A stretch of 64,000 bases of DNA, taken from contig JBBSGT010000001.1 in the NCBI GenBank assembly GCA_038253825.1, positions 11,819-75,818 on the forward strand, written 5' to 3'. A program made the position numbers. This stretch comes from Candidatus Levyibacteriota bacterium. GTDB lineage: Bacteria > Patescibacteriota > Microgenomatia > Levybacterales > UBA12049. Below are positions 18,001 to 33,000 of the stretch, piece after piece (the first letter of the stretch is position 1; each line of letters starts with the position of its first letter).

Positions 18001-21000
18001 AAGTATTGCCGCAATTAGTAAGGTAACAATTGCCAGTAAAGTCGCTGGTGAAACTGCGGGAACAAGCATCTCCATAAAAAATGGGACAGTTGAAAAAGAG
18101 AAACCGATTGGCATGCCGACAGGGACACAAATTACTGTTGATTATCTTTTTCATGCAGTTCCTGCCCGGAAAAATTTTTTAAAATCTCAGCGGACAGAAT
18201 TTAGTCTTATTCTTGAATTAATTTCTCATTATGCACTCGTTTATCCCTCAGTCAATTTTGTCCTAGTACATAACAATAAGACAGTGTTAGATCTTCCAAA
18301 AGTATCAGAAAGGATTGATCGGATTGAAAAACTTCTTGGAAAAGAAATTTATCAAGCGCTTTTGCCGGTCGATTATAAAGATGCTTATGTTACGATTTCC
18401 GGCTTTATTGTGAAGCCATCCTTGACAACTCGTACACCGATTAAACAATTTCTTTTCGTCAACCAAAGACAAATTCGTGATAAAAATTTGTCTTTAAAAA
18501 TTAAAGCTTCGTATGGAACGCTTTTAGAGAATGCAGTTTATCCAATTTGCATTTTATATTTCTCCATACCATGTGAAATGGTTGATGTTAATGTCCATCC
18601 ACGTAAAGAGGAAGTACGATTTAGTAACCAGCAATCTGTTTATGACGCAGTTGAAAAAATAATCAAAGAAACTTTTGCAAATAATGTTTTGGCAACGAAT
18701 TCTTATTGGGATTCTGCTTCACCATTTAATGGATTAGGACTTCATGATGCTTCGAGTGGAACGACTTCTTATGCGGGTAAACTAATGAAAGAAAAGAAGT
18801 TTCCATGGGAATTAAATCTCGAAACAAAACCTGATACAACAGACATTTTACAAATCAATAAACTGTATTTACTGATATCTACTCAGCGCGGTTTTGTTAT
18901 CATTGATCAACATGCTGCACATGAGCGGATTAGATATGAACAATTATTGGATGAGTTTACTAGTGAAAACAATAAAAGAAATATTTTTTATTTCCCTAAA
19001 CCTGGAATTTTTGAGCTCAGTCTATCTGAAAGCGAGCTGCTGCATCATTACCTACCACTTTTTCACGATTTAGGATGGGGAATTGAACATTTTAGAGGAA
19101 GATCATTTCTTCTCACAAGTATCCCGGTTTTGTTCCAAGACCAAAACTACGTTCAATTATTACAAGAGATGTTAGAAGATATTAGAGAGAATGAAAAGCC
19201 CCAAGCACTTAATGCTCGTAGTAAAAAAATGCTGGCATATCTTGCTTGTCACAGCTCTGTCAGAGCTGGTGATAGTTTGACAAGAGAACAGGCAAGAGAA
19301 TTGGTTGAACAATTGGTAAAAACCCCAAACAATGCGACCTGTCCACATGGACGGCCAACGCAAGTTATGATACAAAGAGAAATGCTTGATAAACTATTTA
19401 AACGCTAATATGCTCAAGGAACCGATCATGCAAAAATTAAAGAAAGAATATCCAGCGCCTGAATTCGAAGATAGAAGTGCGGATTTGATGCAATCGATGA
19501 TTAAATCAATCATTTCGCAACAGCTTTCAGTAAAAGCTGCCTCGACAATTTTTGGACGTTTTCAAGATTTATTCATTGCTAACTCCTTTCCAACGGACAA
19601 AGAAATTTTAGCAATGGATGATGAGATTATGCGAAGTGCTGGACTGTCTTATGCAAAAATAAAATATGTAAAATCCGTTGCCAACGCATTTGTCAGTGAT
19701 CTTATTGACATCAAAAAGATCAGAAAGCAATCCGACGAGGAAGTTATTTCTGAGTTAATACAAATTCATGGAATTGGACGATGGACTGCTGAGATGATCT
19801 TGATATTTTCATTACAACGGCCTGATATATTCTCTATTGATGATTTAGGAATTAGAAATGCAATTACGAGACTTTATGGAATTAGCGACAGAAAAGAAAT
19901 GCTAGAATTATCTGAAAAATGGAAACCTTATAGATCAACTGCATGTTGGTATTTATGGAGAAGCCTGGGCAATGCACCTGCTGCCTGATCTGGATTTTGA
20001 TACTGAATCAGCTTAATAGATTTTTGACTTAAGATTTGTTTTTCAATTAAGTAGGAAATGATTTGATTGATGCACTCTTTCGGCGTTTTTTTTGCTGTGT
20101 TAATTGTTATCGCCGGATTGGTTGGTGTCTCGTATGGATCATCAATACCAGTCATCCCTTTCAATTTATTCTTTTTCGCTTTTCGATATAAGCCCTTAAC
20201 ATCACGTTTTATACACACTTCAAGCGGTGTTGATAAGTAGATCTCAATATAGTGACCATTTGGGGAAATGAGATTTCGATTGTATGTTCGTGCATCGGCG
20301 TAAGGAGCAATTGCAGCACAAATCGCAATACCTTTGTGTTTGGTTATTTCATTGGCAACAAATCCAAGTCGGGTAATATTGGTGTATCTATCTTCTCTGC
20401 TAAAACCAAGACCTTTGGATAAATTACTTCGAATGACATCTCCATCCAAAAGTGAAATTTCTCTTTCTTGGATTTCAGTAAGTTTATATAATAACATCTT
20501 TGCCAGTGTCGACTTACCTGAGGAAGGTAATCCGGTAAAGAAAATCGTTACACCTTTCTTCTTTTTACGTCCCGCATTTTCTCGTAATTCATCAATAATC
20601 TCTGGGAAAGAAAGCCAATCTGGCAATGGCTCATTATTTAATAACCTTTCTCGTACTTGCGTTCCTGAGATTTTGAGAATTGTATGTTTTTTATTGACTT
20701 TGTTGATGGGAAGATATTGCTTTTTCTCTTTGACATAAACCATTTCTTTAAATAGAACTGGCGTAATAGCTAATTCTTTCTCACAGGATTTCAAGAAATC
20801 GTGAGCATCATATTCTCCATAATAAGGTTTTCCCAAACGATCTTTTCCGGGACTTGCATGATCGCGACCGACAATAAAATGCGTGCATCCATAATTTTTT
20901 CTGATGATTGCATGAAGTACTGCTTCTCTCGGGCCTGCCATTCTCATTGCAAGTGGAAGCAGACTCAGCATACCGAAATCTTGCATGTAATTATTGTACA

Positions 21001-30000: not shown

Positions 30001-33000
30001 TGATCTCTCCTATACAATTAAAGATAATCACCTTGTTTTCACTTTTGTAATGGAAAATAGAGGAAATATTATCTTAACTCCTACGGGGAATTTCCAAATA
30101 AAAGATGGATCGGGAAAAGTATTTGAAACAATCCCACTTGGCAACTTAGGTGCAGTATTCCCAGGAAAGCCCACGACAATTACTGTTACCTCAAAAAAAG
30201 ATGCTCCGTCTTTTGGCCAATATATTGCTACTGTCACGGTTAATTATTCATCTCTCAAATCAATCACAAAAAGTCTGACATTCTTTCTTTTCTTCCATGA
30301 TTGGTCTGTGATTCTTCCTGTGCTTTTATTGCTCCTGCTTATAATTCTTTTCATTATTATAAAAAAGTATTTATCAAGAAAACATAAATTCCAACAAATA
30401 GCACAACCGGAAATTTCTACAAACAAACCACAATCAGCATCATTTGCGGCAAAGAATATATCTGGAGAAAATGTAGATCAAGTATTTATTGCACACCATA
30501 TTAAATTGCTTGGAGTAGCTGTTCTTATAAGCGTTCTTGTCTTGAGCAGCCTCTTTGCATTTATCTTAAAGGACTTTGTTTTTAGTCCCATAATGCCGCA
30601 TGCTCAAGGATCTTCTACACAGTCAACTGTTCCAAGCAACGCTCCGCTTAGCAAACAGAACACAGTACCCACAGAGACAAGCATACCAATTAATAAAGCC
30701 GATATGAAAGTTATTATTTTAAACGCGAGTGGGAAAGCTGGCGTCGCAAAAGCACTTGGGCAGAAATTATCCAAAGATGGATTTTCAGTAGCAAAAATAG
30801 CCAATGCTGAGGGCACTTCGACACAAACAGTTATACAATATCCGATAGGTAAAAATGAAGAAACAGATTTACTTATGGAAGAATTAAAGAATGAATATGC
30901 TTCAGTTACAAAGGAAGCTTCTGATTCCGCTGTTTTTACCATTATTATTGGTAAGTAATATTTCAATCCTTTTCAATTTATTGTATACTTTTATGCGTGC
31001 ATGCTAAACGTGTGATTGTTAATACTCATATTGAAAAAACAGCAGGGACGTCCTTACTGCGATTCCTTGAGCAAACCATAGGCAAAAAACGTGTCGCCTT
31101 TTATGATCCGACCACAGACAGCGTGATTAAAATATCAGATCTATTTGTCTCTCCTTCAAATGATATCATTGATCAACTCCAGCTCAAGTCATATGCATTC
31201 TGGCCTCTGCTGAAACGATTTTATTTTAATACCCGATCAAACAAACGATACCAGACTACTGTTCCAAATGACATTGCTATTATTCATGGGCACTTTGTTG
31301 CGAATCGTTTCGATAGTTTACTGAAAGATCCTATCCGGTCAGTCGTGATTCGTGATCCATTAAAACGCATGCGTTCGCAATATGATCACTGGAAACGAGC
31401 AAAAGGAAGAAATCAGTGGCGTATAATGATCCCTTATGATGCCCAAATGAGTTTTGAAGAGTACGCCTTGCTTACTGTCATGCAAAATTATCAGACTAAG
31501 GCACTTGCAGGGAAGGATATCGCATCTTTTGATGTCGTTGGTGTTACCGAGCACATCGATGTTTTTACAAATAAACTGTTTGAAGTGTTGATTGAAGAAG
31601 GACATATAAAGAAAAGCATTCGCATGAATTCAGTAAAAAAGTTAAATCTCCATAAGAAGACTCATGAAACAACAATGGAATTTGAAAAGAAATTTAAAGT
31701 TTTTCATAAAGAAGATTATGAACTCTATAGGCAGGCACTTTCCCTTGCAAAGTAATTTAGTTTATCCAACCCCAATTGATAAATACGGTTGAGAAGAAGA
31801 GAAGGAAGATTATAAAAATTGCCACCGTACCTTCATACCAAATGCCCTTTAGTTTCATTGCCAAAAATATAAATAAAGGGAAAATCACTGTCTCATATCT
31901 TGCATATGAAGTAAAACTTTTGATAAGAAGTGGCGCAATGCTGAGACTAAGAATAATGTACCACAATTCAGGACGGAGAGCTTTTTTACTTTTAATAAGA
32001 AGAATTAATCCGATTGCAAAGGTAATTATTTCTGTTTTTGAGACATTATAATCATGCCAAGGAAGTGAGAAGAATTGATAAATGGCAAGGATGTTTGTTT
32101 GAACATTTTCAATAAGCGAAACTTTTGGTCCCCAAAAAGCATGGGTAGTTATCCAAACAGTAGGATCACCCATATTTACTTCACCGACATACAATAAAAG
32201 CATAAGTGACGCAAACGGCAATAAAAGTACTGCTGTAGCTTTCCATAAGGAAATTTTTTTCTTTTGTAAATCAGTAATAATTGCATATAGCAATGGAATA
32301 ATAAGAAAAAAACCATTCACTTTTGTTACATACAGAAGTGCCAGTGAAAGTGTAATATGTACCCATTTTCGCTTCACCAAGGCATAACTAAACCAAACCA
32401 AAAGAAGCAAAAAAAGGCTTTCTGCGTAGTAAGCGCGATAAAAAAGACTCAATGGAAAAAACAACATGAGAAAATTTGTGCGCATGGCTATCTGATGAGA
32501 ATACAGTTTGCTGACGACGTAATATGTAGCAAAAAAGAGTGCAATGAGAATAATGTTACTGAAAATAAAAGCCGAAACAGCAATGTTGTGAATAATAGTA
32601 TTTATAAACGCAACGCTATAGGGATAAAGCGGAAAAAAAGCATAGGCATACTGATCCAAAAAGACATGATCCCCATGAGCTTCAATTTCTGATTGTGTTG
32701 TATAACCAGCTTTTGCGATACGGTAATACCACTGACCATCCCAGGCGCTTAGTGCATTGACAAGATTAAAATTCCCTTGCGTTACGCGTGTATCTGCCAC
32801 ATAATGAAAGCCTGTTCCATATAGGTACTTATTAAATGGCAACAATTGGTAGGAAACCATTAAAAAAGCATAATAAAAAAGTTGCAAAGCAATGAAAATA
32901 AGAAGACCAATCTTAAAATACCTCTTAGTGAACATATAATAAATTATTTGTTACTGTAAGCAAGAAGTCAATACGCAGGACAGTTGCTATAGCTTGCAAT

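What the first reader, a model, noticed from the sequence alone, without database searches (positions are those of the whole stretch)
19928..32935. Csc-like WxL/DUF916 cell-surface complex operon coupled to a PAPS synthase, a sulfotransferase and a GT-C glycosyltransferase
Seen in sequence. Seven co-directional genes (21893-31755) encode three proteins sharing a C-terminal WxL-like module ('TVTDN(R/T)GxGxGW', 'DSWTIRVDVIPVTGLQITPG', terminal 'SYAxxYTAT(V/I/F)TET(V/L)(L/Q)'; the 554-aa member has a literal 'GWGLTV'). Two have a DUF916-like N-domain ('KSWFI(F/Y)xLxAG...', 'GGII(F/V)(E/Q)E') with C-terminal TM anchors. One is an 895-aa adhesin-like protein. The operon's last gene is a sulfotransferase with intact 5'-PSB ('KTAGTS') and 3'-PB ('RDPLKRMRSQY') motifs. 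Divergently upstream is a bifunctional ATP-sulfurylase/APS-kinase. Convergently downstream is a PIG-V-like GT-C glycosyltransferase. Established knowledge. WxL + DUF916 (CscA/B/C) clusters form non-covalently attached surface complexes in Lactobacillales, and Sulfotransfer_2 enzymes use PAPS made by Sat+CysC. Inference. This is a surface complex whose protein or glycan component is sulfated. To my knowledge that has not been described for WxL systems or for small-genome bacteria.
Basis: partly seen in the sequence, partly recalled or inferred. Interest (0 to 1): 0.85.

Follow-up and report, generated by a model that had tools for sequence, protein, structure and literature searches.

The report
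WxL surface-protein cassette inserted beside sulfation genes

Summary
Observation confirmed; interpretation not supported. The window comes from a Candidatus Levyibacteriota (CPR) genome.

All nine genes exist, and most domain calls hold:
- a bifunctional PAPS synthase
- two WxL proteins above Pfam threshold, plus a paralogue
- two DUF916/WxLIP proteins, one with a LytR_C domain
- a cytoplasmic sulfotransferase closest in fold to heparan-sulfate 2-O/6-O-sulfotransferases
- a GT-C fold membrane glycosyltransferase

Comparative genomics separates them into two modules. Five related lineages, including the sister genome, have PAPS synthase | sulfotransferase | GT-C directly adjacent between MutSL and UvrA, with no WxL genes. 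The core WxL cassette occurs in three other relatives at three unrelated sites, never near sulfation genes.

In the window, the ancestral 124-nt PAPS-synthase/sulfotransferase spacer is split around a ~9.15-kb insert. The sulfotransferase keeps its conserved promoter-like upstream element.

A near-identical second assembly differs at three bases in 20.7 kb. All three lie in the cassette, and two are stop codons, one in each WxLIP gene.

Residual interest is moderate. There is a divergent single-Trp WxL/WxLIP cassette in CPR bacteria. There is also a conserved PAPS-dependent sulfation pair in a small-genome lineage, acceptor unknown. I found neither described in the searchable literature.

The parts
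19928..21745 (-). Bifunctional ATP sulfurylase / APS kinase (PAPS synthase), 605 aa. It belongs to module B (sulfation).
   Evidence: Pfam PUA_2 + ATP-sulfurylase + APS_kinase. NCBIfam NF004040 equivalog at 765.7 bits, cut-off 669. The sequence shows QTRNPLHRAH, GRDHASPG and the kinase P-loop GLPSSGKST. Divergently adjacent to the sulfotransferase in L002, L019, L020-22 and L024/25.
21746..21794 (.). Retained left half of the ancestral PAPS-synthase/sulfotransferase intergenic spacer.
   Evidence: Aligns base for base with the left part of the 124-nt spacer of sister locus L019, up to '...AAATAATA(A/G)CA'.
21795..30951 (+). Inserted WxL/WxLIP cassette (module A), about 9.15 kb, six genes. Boundaries are approximate to within a few bases.
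   Evidence: Absent from the same site in L019 (sister), L002, L020-22, L023 and L024/25. The homologous five-gene core is found at unrelated sites in L030, L031 and ERR6862844. GC3 of its genes is 0.24-0.35, within the native range.
21846..21875 (+). Promoter-like site TTGACA-18-TACGAT inside the insert, 18 nt upstream of the first cassette gene.
   Evidence: Consensus scan, 10 of 12 matches. This is a consensus match only. Promoter-like sites are not enriched in the region (59 found against 49.8 +/- 6.7 expected).
21893..22795 (+). Small WxL-like protein 1 (300 aa). It has a conserved His/Trp/Tyr-rich N-terminal motif, one hydrophobic segment and an ~85-aa insert within the WxL module.
   Evidence: Pfam WxL at 30.3 bits, above GA 25. 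Alignment A5. N-terminal motif and hydrophobic segment 29-47.
22812..25499 (+). 895-aa secreted multi-domain adhesin-like protein. It is extra cargo, not part of the conserved core cassette. The first in-frame ATG is at 22752.
   Evidence: SdrD_B at 51 bits. OmpL47-type and post-COAP-1 domains. Matches the SdrD B domain in PDB 10ps/4jdz. N-terminal hydrophobic signal-like segment. No homologue in the cassettes of L030/L031.
25558..26694 (+). WxLIP-like protein 1. DUF916/PGBD domain, a second beta-rich region and two C-terminal hydrophobic segments. 378 aa from the first ATG; the public call is 364 aa, from 25600.
   Evidence: PF06030 at 47.4 bits. The family profile matches solved EfmWxLIP1 9i25/9i1y at E 6e-6. 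TM-like segments at 312-330 and 352-370. Codon 30 is AAA here but TAA in the second assembly.
26775..28439 (+). Large WxL protein (554 aa). Signal peptide, a ~400-aa N-terminal region of unknown fold, and a C-terminal WxL module with a literal 'GWGL'.
   Evidence: PF13731 at 30.4 bits, residues 445-552. No PDB sequence match. Alignment A5.
28513..29433 (+). Small WxL-like protein 2 (306 aa), a paralogue of the 300-aa protein.
   Evidence: phmmer 3e-99 to the 300-aa protein. Same N-terminal motif and insert. No Pfam hit of its own.
29438..30958 (+). WxLIP-like protein 2 (506 aa). DUF916/PGBD, two hydrophobic segments, a Ser/Thr/Pro-rich linker and a C-terminal LytR_C domain. Its last codons overlap the retained right half of the spacer.
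   Evidence: PF06030 at 57.4 bits and PF13399 at 43.4 bits. TM-like segments at 290-308 and 358-376. Same architecture in L030, L031 and ERR6862844. Codon 40 is TCG here but TAG in the second assembly.
30952..30996 (+). Retained right half of the ancestral spacer, with the conserved promoter-like element TTTCAAT-N16-(G)TAnAnT upstream of the sulfotransferase.
   Evidence: Aligns with the sulfotransferase-proximal spacer of L019, L020 and L024. No terminator-like hairpin lies between 30958 and 30997.
30997..31755 (+). Cytoplasmic PAPS-type sulfotransferase (252 aa, GTG start). It belongs to module B.
31757..32935 (-). GT-C fold membrane glycosyltransferase (392 aa), PIG-V/PMT_2-like. It is convergent with the sulfotransferase. 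Membership of module B is uncertain.
   Evidence: AF2 pLDDT 94. Top 41 Foldseek PDB hits are 38 GT-C glycosyltransferases (STT3/AglB/PglB, ALG9/12, Emb, ArnT, PimE, Aft, DPY19, PMT) plus 3 chains of PIG-U, the GT-C-fold subunit of GPI transamidase. 11 and 17 of 38 homologues hit PF04188 and PF13231. Invariant D66. Adjacent to the sulfotransferase only within the syntenic clade, not in L032.

Best explanation
Two separate, individually recognisable systems lie side by side because of a recent insertion.

Module B, the older resident of this site, is a sulfation pair. The bifunctional ATP-sulfurylase/APS-kinase makes PAPS. The divergently transcribed, soluble, HS2ST/HS6ST-like sulfotransferase uses PAPS in the cytoplasm to O-sulfate an acceptor. 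I infer the acceptor is most likely a sugar on an envelope glycoconjugate precursor. The neighbouring GT-C enzyme may or may not belong to that pathway.

[quoted passage not shown] By analogy with Lactobacillales Csc/WxL clusters, it is expected to assemble a non-covalently held protein complex on the cell wall.

After the split from the sister lineage (L019), the ~9.15-kb cassette landed in the 124-nt spacer between the PAPS synthase and sulfotransferase genes. It brought its own promoter-like site and left the sulfotransferase's conserved upstream element intact.

Shown: gene identities, the insertion, and the independent distribution of the two modules. Inferred: the acceptor of the sulfotransferase, the role of the GT-C enzyme, assembly of the WxL complex, and whether read-through now co-expresses the sulfotransferase with the cassette.
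For: (1) Identities.

(2) Five related lineages carry MutS-MutL-PAPSS(-)-ST(+)-GT-C(-)-UvrA-TGase with no WxL genes. They are L019 (ST 80%, GT-C 89% identical), L020-22, L002, L023 and L024/25.

(3) A neighbour-joining tree of ST + GT-C + UvrA + TGase puts the window sister to L019, with the other four outside. One gain therefore explains the pattern.

(4) The ancestral spacer is contiguous and alignable among L019, L020 and L024. In the window its two halves flank the cassette.

(5) The same core cassette occurs at three unrelated sites without ST or PAPSS within 10 kb. Its order is small WxL | WxLIP | large WxL | small WxL | WxLIP-LytR_C.

(6) The sulfotransferase lacks any hydrophobic segment. 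Its best structural matches are carbohydrate O-sulfotransferases.

(7) A second, near-identical assembly differs at only 3 of 20,759 bases, all inside the cassette. Two are nonsense codons, one in each WxLIP gene. The part of the PAPSS gene that L001 covers, ST, GT-C, UvrA, TGase and UvrC are all identical. The cassette therefore varies independently of the sulfation genes.

(8) The WxL assignment is bridged to the family. A profile of the window's modules finds 590 representatives, and 55 of 69 sampled hit Pfam WxL.
Against: - In this genome the sulfotransferase is co-directional with the cassette, 38 nt downstream, with no predicted terminator between them. Co-transcription, and hence a newly acquired functional link, cannot be excluded.
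- The related genomes are syntenic over the whole neighbourhood. Conserved adjacency of the GT-C gene therefore says little, and a 41%-identical GT-C homologue is not next to sulfation genes.
- More distant sulfotransferase homologues (44% identity or less) have no PAPS synthase within 10 kb. The pairing is documented only in one clade.
- No acceptor is identified.
- The promoter-like elements are consensus matches only, and CPR promoters are poorly known.
- No mobile-element gene, tRNA or clear target duplication marks the insert, so the insertion mechanism is unknown.
Confidence: 0.8

Rival explanations
1. The seven co-directional genes form one operon, and the sulfotransferase sulfates a protein or glycan component of the WxL surface complex, using PAPS from the divergent synthase.
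For: Co-directional genes, a 38-nt gap and no terminator-like hairpin before the sulfotransferase. All components are envelope-related.
Against: - There is no co-occurrence in any other locus. Five lineages have the sulfation genes without WxL, and three have the cassette without sulfation genes.
- The split spacer shows a recent insertion.
- The sulfotransferase is cytoplasmic and glycan-type, whereas WxL proteins are Sec-exported.
- The sulfotransferase retains its ancestral upstream element.
- Both WxLIP genes carry stop codons in a sibling assembly whose sulfation genes are unchanged.
Confidence: 0.07
2. The cassette is ancestral at this site and was deleted in the relatives. The coupled arrangement would then be the original one.
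For: Only a handful of genomes were sampled. Deletions are common in reduced genomes.
Against: - The window's sister (L019) and all four outgroup lineages lack the cassette, so at least two independent losses are needed.
- Those losses would have to leave a spacer that is still mutually alignable among L019, L020 and L024, including about 30 nt that the window lacks.
- The cassette is found at three different sites elsewhere.
Confidence: 0.04
3. The PAPS synthase serves ordinary assimilatory sulfate reduction (PAPS to sulfite to sulfide). Its position next to the sulfotransferase is incidental.
For: Sat + CysC are also the first steps of PAPS-dependent sulfur assimilation (established knowledge). 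The whole genome could not be searched here.
Against: - Divergent PAPSS/ST pairing is conserved in all six genomes of the clade.
- In L023 only the APS-kinase part remains, and it is still next to the sulfotransferase.
- No cysH, cysIJ, sir or sulfate permease was found among the roughly 45 genes scanned in the 64-kb window.
- CPR genomes generally lack cysteine biosynthesis from sulfate. This is my own knowledge and was not tested here.
Confidence: 0.1
4. Same two-module picture, but the sulfotransferase acts on a non-glycan acceptor such as a lipid, small metabolite or peptide. The GT-C enzyme is then unrelated.
For: - The GT-C link does not extend beyond the syntenic clade.
- Distant homologues sit next to a polyprenyl synthase (L028), or to unannotated genes and a radical-SAM gene (L026).
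Against: - The best sequence and structure matches are HS2ST and HS6ST, at 20-23% identity, sharing the HGH catalytic motif.
- One Saccharimonadales homologue lies beside YdjC-like and ABC-2 exporter genes typical of glycopolymer pathways.
Confidence: 0.25

Closest known systems
Csc / WxL gene clusters of Lactobacillales and Listeria (small WxL + large WxL + WxLIP = DUF916-DUF3324-TM; Siezen 2006 PMC1534035; Hassan & Williamson PMC9772566, PMC10599100)
   Same: The cluster has at least one WxLIP and at least two WxL proteins within four genes. Small and large WxL proteins are both present, and the large one has its WxL module at the C-terminus. WxLIP has an N-terminal DUF916/PGBD and a membrane anchor. 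All products carry export signals. Pfam WxL and WxLIP_PGBD models are matched above threshold. The WxLIP profile matches solved EfmWxLIP1.
   Different: - The host is a CPR bacterium (Levyibacteriota). 91% of known WxL sequences are from Firmicutes (PMC9772566).
- Only the first Trp motif is conserved. The second motif's Trp is replaced by Glu or an aliphatic residue.
- The small proteins carry a conserved ~30-aa His/Trp/Tyr-rich N-terminal motif and an ~85-aa insert.
- No member matches DUF3324, 0 of 23.
- WxLIP has two hydrophobic segments, and one copy ends in LytR_C.
- The core is duplicated (2 WxLIP, 3 WxL).
- There is no LPxTG protein.
Bacterial PAPS-dependent glycan/glycolipid sulfation pairs. 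Examples are NodPQ + NodH and LpsS in Sinorhizobium, CysNC + Stf0 in mycobacteria, and sulfotransferases in sulfated capsule clusters such as Vibrio sp. KMM 8419 (PMC11641403)
   Same: A PAPS-generating enzyme is encoded with a soluble sulfotransferase that has 5'-PSB and 3'-PB motifs. The product is expected to be an envelope or secreted glycoconjugate.
   Different: - The host is a small-genome CPR lineage.
- The synthase is a single Sat-CysC fusion of the Aquifex type (NF004040).
- No polysaccharide-synthesis cluster surrounds it, only one GT-C gene.
- The rhizobial and mycobacterial examples come from my own knowledge and were not checked here.
Heparan sulfate 2-O- and 6-O-sulfotransferases (PDB 3f5f/4ndz, 5t03)
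   Different: Only 20-23% identity. The bacterial protein has no membrane anchor or lumenal context, and its acceptor is unknown.
PIG-V / Gpi18-like and PMT_2 GT-C mannosyltransferases (PF04188, PF13231)
   Same: Multi-helix GT-C fold with an invariant Asp in the first loop region. Remote homologues carry these Pfam domains.
   Different: The protein itself matches no Pfam model, and it matches NCBIfam AZOBR_p60025 only weakly (23.9 bits against a cut-off of 150). Donor and acceptor are unknown.

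Membership tests
WxL gene cluster (Csc-type; definition of Hassan et al. 2023, PMC10599100) | At least one WxLIP and at least two WxL proteins encoded within four genes of each other | tested here: met
   Two PF06030 proteins and two PF13731 proteins above gathering score, plus one WxL paralogue, all within 21893-30958.
WxL gene cluster (Csc-type) | WxL domain recognised by the family model (Pfam PF13731) | tested here: met
   30.3 and 30.4 bits against GA 25 for the 300-aa and 554-aa proteins. The 306-aa protein has no hit but is a 3e-99 paralogue. 55 of 69 profile-found relatives hit PF13731, best E 2.3e-12.
WxL gene cluster (Csc-type) | Two conserved Trp-x-Leu motifs in each WxL domain | tested here: not met
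   Motif 1: Trp is invariant, but Leu is present only in the large protein (WGL). The small ones read WNA and WTA. Motif 2: Trp is replaced (…TATVTETVL), and that column is never Trp in 69 relatives.
WxL gene cluster (Csc-type) | Small WxL protein = signal peptide + WxL domain only | tested here: not met
   The small proteins carry a conserved ~30-aa N-terminal motif (HHxRxxRPxWYxxYHxWxHHxxLHW) before the hydrophobic segment, and an ~85-aa insert inside the module.
WxL gene cluster (Csc-type) | WxLIP = DUF916 (PGBD) + DUF3324 (HBD) + one C-terminal TM helix | tested here: inconclusive
   DUF916 is met (47 and 57 bits; PDB EfmWxLIP1 E 6e-6). The DUF3324 model is matched by 0 of 23 family members at E<=1. 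Two hydrophobic segments are present instead of one. The fold of the second domain was not modelled.
WxL gene cluster (Csc-type) | Non-covalent peptidoglycan binding and WxL-WxLIP complex formation | not testable with these tools
   This needs binding assays or multimer modelling.
PAPS-dependent sulfotransferase (Sulfotransfer_2-like) | 5'-phosphosulfate-binding loop (K-T-x-G-T/S) and 3'-phosphate-binding motif (R-x-P-x-x-R-x-x-S) | tested here: met
   K14, T15, G17, R119, P121, R124 and S127 are invariant in 30 homologues. They align with HS2ST RDPxxRxxS.
PAPS-dependent sulfotransferase (Sulfotransfer_2-like) | Score above the Pfam PF03567 gathering threshold | tested here: not met
   17.6 bits against 22. 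Eight of the 61 homologues listed carry a precomputed PF03567 hit.
PAPS-dependent sulfotransferase (Sulfotransfer_2-like) | Sulfotransferase fold with a catalytic His | tested here: met
Bifunctional sulfate adenylyltransferase / adenylylsulfate kinase (NF004040) | Score above the equivalog cut-off, with both catalytic domains present | tested here: met
   765.7 bits against 669, covering 21-572. Pfam ATP-sulfurylase and APS_kinase are both full length.
GT-C glycosyltransferase (PIG-V / PMT_2-like) | GT-C membrane fold with a conserved acidic residue in the first extracytoplasmic loop | tested here: met
   pLDDT 94. The top 41 PDB Foldseek hits are all GT-C-fold proteins: 38 GT-C glycosyltransferases plus 3 chains of PIG-U, a GPI transamidase subunit. 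D66 is invariant in 38 homologues. The loop's sidedness is inferred, not tested.
GT-C glycosyltransferase (PIG-V / PMT_2-like) | Direct match to PF04188 or PF13231 | tested here: not met
   The window protein matches no Pfam model. 11 and 17 of 38 homologues do.
   Of the 31 loci fetched from genomes other than the window's, none has both. The only locus with both is L001, the window's own region in the second assembly of the same strain. The single apparent exception, L011, is a LytR_C-only match.

The most novel reading that the evidence does not exclude
A clade of Candidatus Levyibacteriota keeps a dedicated PAPS synthase and an HS2ST-like sulfotransferase. With the adjacent GT-C enzyme, these would make a sulfated cell-envelope glycoconjugate. 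That would be the first sulfation pathway described for CPR/Patescibacteria, plausibly used in attachment to a host cell. In this one strain, the inserted WxL cassette may now drive read-through expression of the sulfotransferase, so that surface complex and sulfated glycan are co-expressed.
Probability: 0.3. Interest if true: 0.6.

Novelty: new variant of a known kind. Interest (0 to 1): 0.38.

Why it matters
The proposed 'sulfated WxL complex' would have been a new kind of surface system. The evidence indicates a chance juxtaposition instead, which saves follow-up effort.

Three things remain useful:

1. WxL/WxLIP cassettes exist in CPR bacteria in a divergent, single-Trp form with a distinctive N-terminal motif, and they move around the genome. 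WxL clusters are otherwise regarded as a Firmicutes (mostly Bacilli) feature. CPR cells depend on surface contact with hosts.

2. A small-genome lineage retains a 605-aa PAPS synthase paired with a glycan-type sulfotransferase. This implies a sulfated product that matters to the cell, and I found no report of sulfation in CPR in the searchable literature.

3. Two near-identical assemblies differ by stop codons in both WxLIP genes. This hints at on/off selection on the surface complex.

Tried and rejected
- **Second ST–WxL co-occurrence.** L011 showed a 'DUF916_506' hit 1 kb from a sulfotransferase homologue. The match is to the LytR_C domain only.
- **Foreign origin of the cassette.** GC3 of the cassette genes (0.24-0.35) is within the native range. 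Their higher total GC reflects Gly/Ala/Thr-rich composition. No integrase, transposase or tRNA flanks the insert. A 7-nt CATTATT occurs at both junctions, but that may be chance in AT-rich DNA.
- **Sequence match of the WxL modules to solved structures.** None was found. The insert shows only an insignificant filamin-repeat resemblance.
- **Large WxL N-terminal region.** No PDB or Pfam match.
- **GT-C linkage beyond the syntenic clade.** A 41%-identical homologue (L032) has no sulfation neighbours.
- **Contexts of distant sulfotransferase homologues.** They are heterogeneous, with no PAPS synthase within 10 kb.
- **Literature.** Searches for WxL + CPR/Patescibacteria and for sulfotransferase + CPR/Patescibacteria returned nothing relevant.
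- **cys genes in the window.** None was found, but this is only 64 kb.
- **Exact look-up of the intact 506-aa WxLIP.** The look-up failed. The cluster look-up then showed the protein on an 84.6-kb contig.

Full report
**1. What is in the sequence**

- A 605-aa gene lies on the minus strand at 19928-21745.
- Seven plus-strand genes run from 21893 to 31755.
- A 392-aa minus-strand gene at 31757-32935 ends 1 nt after the last plus-strand gene.

The region lies between mutS-mutL and an HhH-GPD glycosylase upstream, and uvrA, a transglutaminase-like gene and uvrC downstream. An exact-sequence look-up places it on a Candidatus Levyibacteriota MAG contig, GCA_050997215.1. The nearest homologues are also Levyibacteriota or other CPR.

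**2. Gene identities**

*PAPS synthase.* It matches PUA_2, ATP-sulfurylase and APS_kinase. It exceeds the NCBIfam equivalog cut-off for bifunctional Sat/CysC, at 765.7 bits against 669.

*WxL and WxLIP proteins.*
- The 300-aa and 554-aa proteins exceed the Pfam WxL gathering score (30.3 and 30.4 against 25).
- The 306-aa protein has no hit but is a clear paralogue (3e-99).
- The 378-aa and 506-aa proteins match WxLIP_PGBD (DUF916). The 506-aa protein also has LytR_C.
- A profile of the WxLIP-like family matches the solved E. faecium WxLIP1, 9i25/9i1y, at E 6e-6.
- A profile built only from the window's three WxL modules finds 590 representatives among 1.84 billion proteins. Of 69 sampled, 55 hit Pfam WxL.

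By the published operational definition, at least one WxLIP and at least two WxL proteins within four genes (PMC10599100), this is a WxL cluster.

*Departures from the canonical WxL cluster.*
- The name-giving second Trp-x-Leu motif is absent. The C-terminus reads …YTATVTETVL, and that column is never Trp in 69 relatives.
- The Leu of the first motif is present only in the large protein.
- No family member matches DUF3324 (0 of 23).
- Each WxLIP-like protein has two C-terminal hydrophobic segments.
- The small proteins carry a conserved His/Trp/Tyr-rich N-terminal motif and an ~85-aa insert.

*Sulfotransferase.* It is sub-threshold on Pfam Sulfotransfer_2 (17.6 against 22). Other evidence supports the call.
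- Its family has invariant HIEKTxGT, HGHF and RxPxxRxxS motifs.
- The profile aligns to the HGH and 3'-PB motifs of heparan sulfate 2-O-sulfotransferase.
- It has no hydrophobic segment, so it should act in the cytoplasm, where PAPS is made.

*392-aa protein.* It matches no Pfam model. Its model (pLDDT 94) matches only GT-C-fold proteins in the PDB: 38 GT-C glycosyltransferases and 3 chains of the GPI transamidase subunit PIG-U among the top 41 hits. Remote homologues carry the PIG-V and PMT_2 domains.

**3. The test of coupling**

I collected genomic contexts for homologues of the sulfotransferase and of the WxLIP protein.

*Sulfotransferase homologues at 58-80% identity.* These are L019, L020-22, L002, L023 and L024/25. 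All show the same order: MutS-MutL-PAPSS(-)-ST(+)-GT-C(-)-UvrA-TGase, with nothing between PAPSS and ST. In L023 only a 182-aa APS kinase remains at the PAPSS position.

*WxLIP homologues at 53-58% identity.* They lie in a conserved five-gene core: small WxL-like, WxLIP, large WxL, small WxL-like, WxLIP-LytR_C. It occupies three unrelated sites, and none has a sulfotransferase or PAPS synthase within 10 kb.
- L030: next to peptide deformylase and glutamine synthetase genes.
- ERR6862844: after a Wzy_C gene.
- L031: between Nramp and sortase genes.

Across the 31 loci from genomes other than the window's, none has both modules. The only locus with both is L001, the window's own region in the second assembly. 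The single apparent exception, L011, is a LytR_C-only match.

**4. The insertion**

A neighbour-joining tree of concatenated ST, GT-C, UvrA and TGase proteins makes the window sister to L019 (ST 80%, GT-C 89%, UvrA 96% identical). L002, L020, L023 and L024 fall outside. All five lack the cassette, so one gain in the window's lineage is the parsimonious history.

The DNA shows the scar.
- L019's 124-nt PAPSS-ST spacer aligns on its left part with window 21746-~21794.
- Its right part aligns with window ~30952-30996.
- About 30 nt of its middle are missing from the window. That middle stretch is shared with L020 and L024. In the window it is replaced by about 9.15 kb.

The right-hand remnant contains an element, TTTCAAT-N16-(G)TAnAnT, that is conserved upstream of the sulfotransferase in L019, L020 and L024. 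The sulfotransferase has therefore kept what is probably its own promoter. The insert has its own TTGACA-18-TACGAT site 18 nt before its first gene. These are consensus matches, not demonstrations of function.

No terminator-like hairpin separates the last cassette gene from the sulfotransferase. Read-through in this strain is therefore possible.

Codon-position GC of the cassette genes is within the native range. Their divergence from the L030/L031 cassettes (about 53-64%) is similar to that of the sulfation genes between clade members. This suggests relocation within the lineage or from a close relative. No mobile-element gene flanks the insert.

**5. Independent variation**

The window differs from the NCBI assembly (L001) at only 3 of 20,759 aligned bases. 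All three lie in the cassette.
- K30 (AAA) to TAA in WxLIP-1.
- S40 (TCG) to TAG in WxLIP-2.
- G250R in the large WxL protein.

The intact proteins (364 and 506 aa) are on an 84.6-kb contig. The truncated ones (334 and 359 aa) are on the 44.7-kb contig. The part of the PAPSS gene that L001 covers, ST, GT-C, UvrA, TGase and UvrC are identical. Two nonsense changes among three substitutions, one early in each of the two paralogous WxLIP genes, is unlikely to be random. It suggests selection for switching the surface complex off, or back on. It again shows the cassette evolving separately from the sulfation genes.

**6. Most likely mechanism**

*Module B.* The Sat-CysC fusion makes PAPS, and the soluble HS2ST-like enzyme transfers sulfate to an acceptor in the cytoplasm. 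Three observations favour a sugar hydroxyl on an envelope glycoconjugate precursor. This is inference, and I give it roughly 50-60% within the two-module model.
- The enzyme's closest relatives are glycan O-sulfotransferases.
- A GT-C enzyme is adjacent.
- One Saccharimonadales homologue sits beside YdjC-like and ABC-2 exporter genes.

The GT-C link is weak. The whole neighbourhood is syntenic in the clade, and a 41%-identical GT-C homologue is elsewhere.

*Module A.* By analogy with Csc/WxL clusters (PMC9772566, PMC10599100), the WxLIP-like proteins would sit in the membrane and hold the WxL-like proteins on the wall. The large WxL protein and the 895-aa SdrD-B-containing protein would provide outward-facing binding domains.

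**7. What could not be settled**

- Genome-wide absence of assimilatory sulfate reduction. Only the window was scanned, and it contains no cys genes.
- The sulfotransferase's acceptor.
- Transcription across the junction.
- WxL-WxLIP complex formation.

Literature searches found no paper linking WxL or sulfotransferases to CPR/Patescibacteria. The library is incomplete, and NCBI's pipeline already names these proteins 'WxL protein peptidoglycan domain-containing' and 'LytR C-terminal domain-containing'.

**8. Verdict**

- The interpretation as a coupled, sulfated WxL system is not supported.
- The locus is a juxtaposition of a divergent CPR-type WxL cassette and a conserved PAPS-synthase/sulfotransferase pair, created by a recent insertion.
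- Interest is moderate (0.38). It rests on the CPR WxL variant, the CPR sulfation pair and the nonsense polymorphisms, not on the proposed coupling.

Noticed in passing
window 25645, 27522, 29556 (L001 4649, 6526, 8560): The second public assembly of this strain differs at only three bases in 20.7 kb, all inside the WxL cassette. Two of them create stop codons early in the two WxLIP genes (K30*, S40*), and the third is G250R in the large WxL protein. This looks like selected on/off variation of the surface complex.
   Followed up: partly
window 21893-22040 and 28513-28670; also L030 9045-, 12570-; L031 9093-, 14199-: All six small WxL-like proteins begin with a conserved ~30-aa motif, HHxRxxRPxWYxxYHxWxHHxxLHW, directly before their single hydrophobic segment and an AxA-like site. 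A six-frame regex scan found it nowhere else in the window or the fetched loci. The two window proteins that carry it have no NCBIfam match, and their only Pfam match is WxL. It could be a dedicated sorting signal or a cytoplasmic tail.
   Followed up: partly
L023 9346-9894 (ERZ27310481 k141_4452414): In one clade member the PAPS-synthase position holds only a 182-aa APS kinase. The ATP-sulfurylase part is missing, so APS must come from another gene or from outside the cell.
   Followed up: no
L003/L026, L004, L005, L006 around position 10001: Sulfotransferase homologues at 41-44% identity share a different conserved context. Upstream are divergent genes of about 222, 700 and 278 aa with no Pfam hit on record in L026. 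Downstream is a convergent ~270-aa Exo_endo_phos-like gene. No PAPS synthase lies within 10 kb.
   Followed up: no
window 21793-21799 and 30940-30946: The heptamer CATTATT occurs at both junctions of the inserted cassette. It may be microhomology used in the insertion, or chance in AT-rich DNA.
   Followed up: no
window 7400-8248 and 9184-9963: Two paralogous DUF347-repeat membrane proteins flank a VTT/DedA-family gene (8277-8888), next to a histidine kinase/response regulator pair (5685-7398).
   Followed up: no
window 45966-47337: A CofD-like (2-phospho-L-lactate transferase family) gene overlaps a small Phage_holin_4_2-family membrane protein gene by 8 nt on the minus strand.
   Followed up: no
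window 19386-19988 / 19928-21745: The 3' ends of the HhH-GPD glycosylase gene and the convergent PAPS synthase gene overlap by about 60 nt. The sister locus L019 shows the same arrangement.
   Followed up: no
L002, L004, L009-L011 record titles: Several contigs carrying CPR-like sulfotransferase neighbourhoods are labelled 'Acidiferrales' or 'uncultured Gammaproteobacteria'. L002 is fully syntenic with the Levyibacteriota loci, so its label looks like mis-binning or mis-classification.
   Followed up: no
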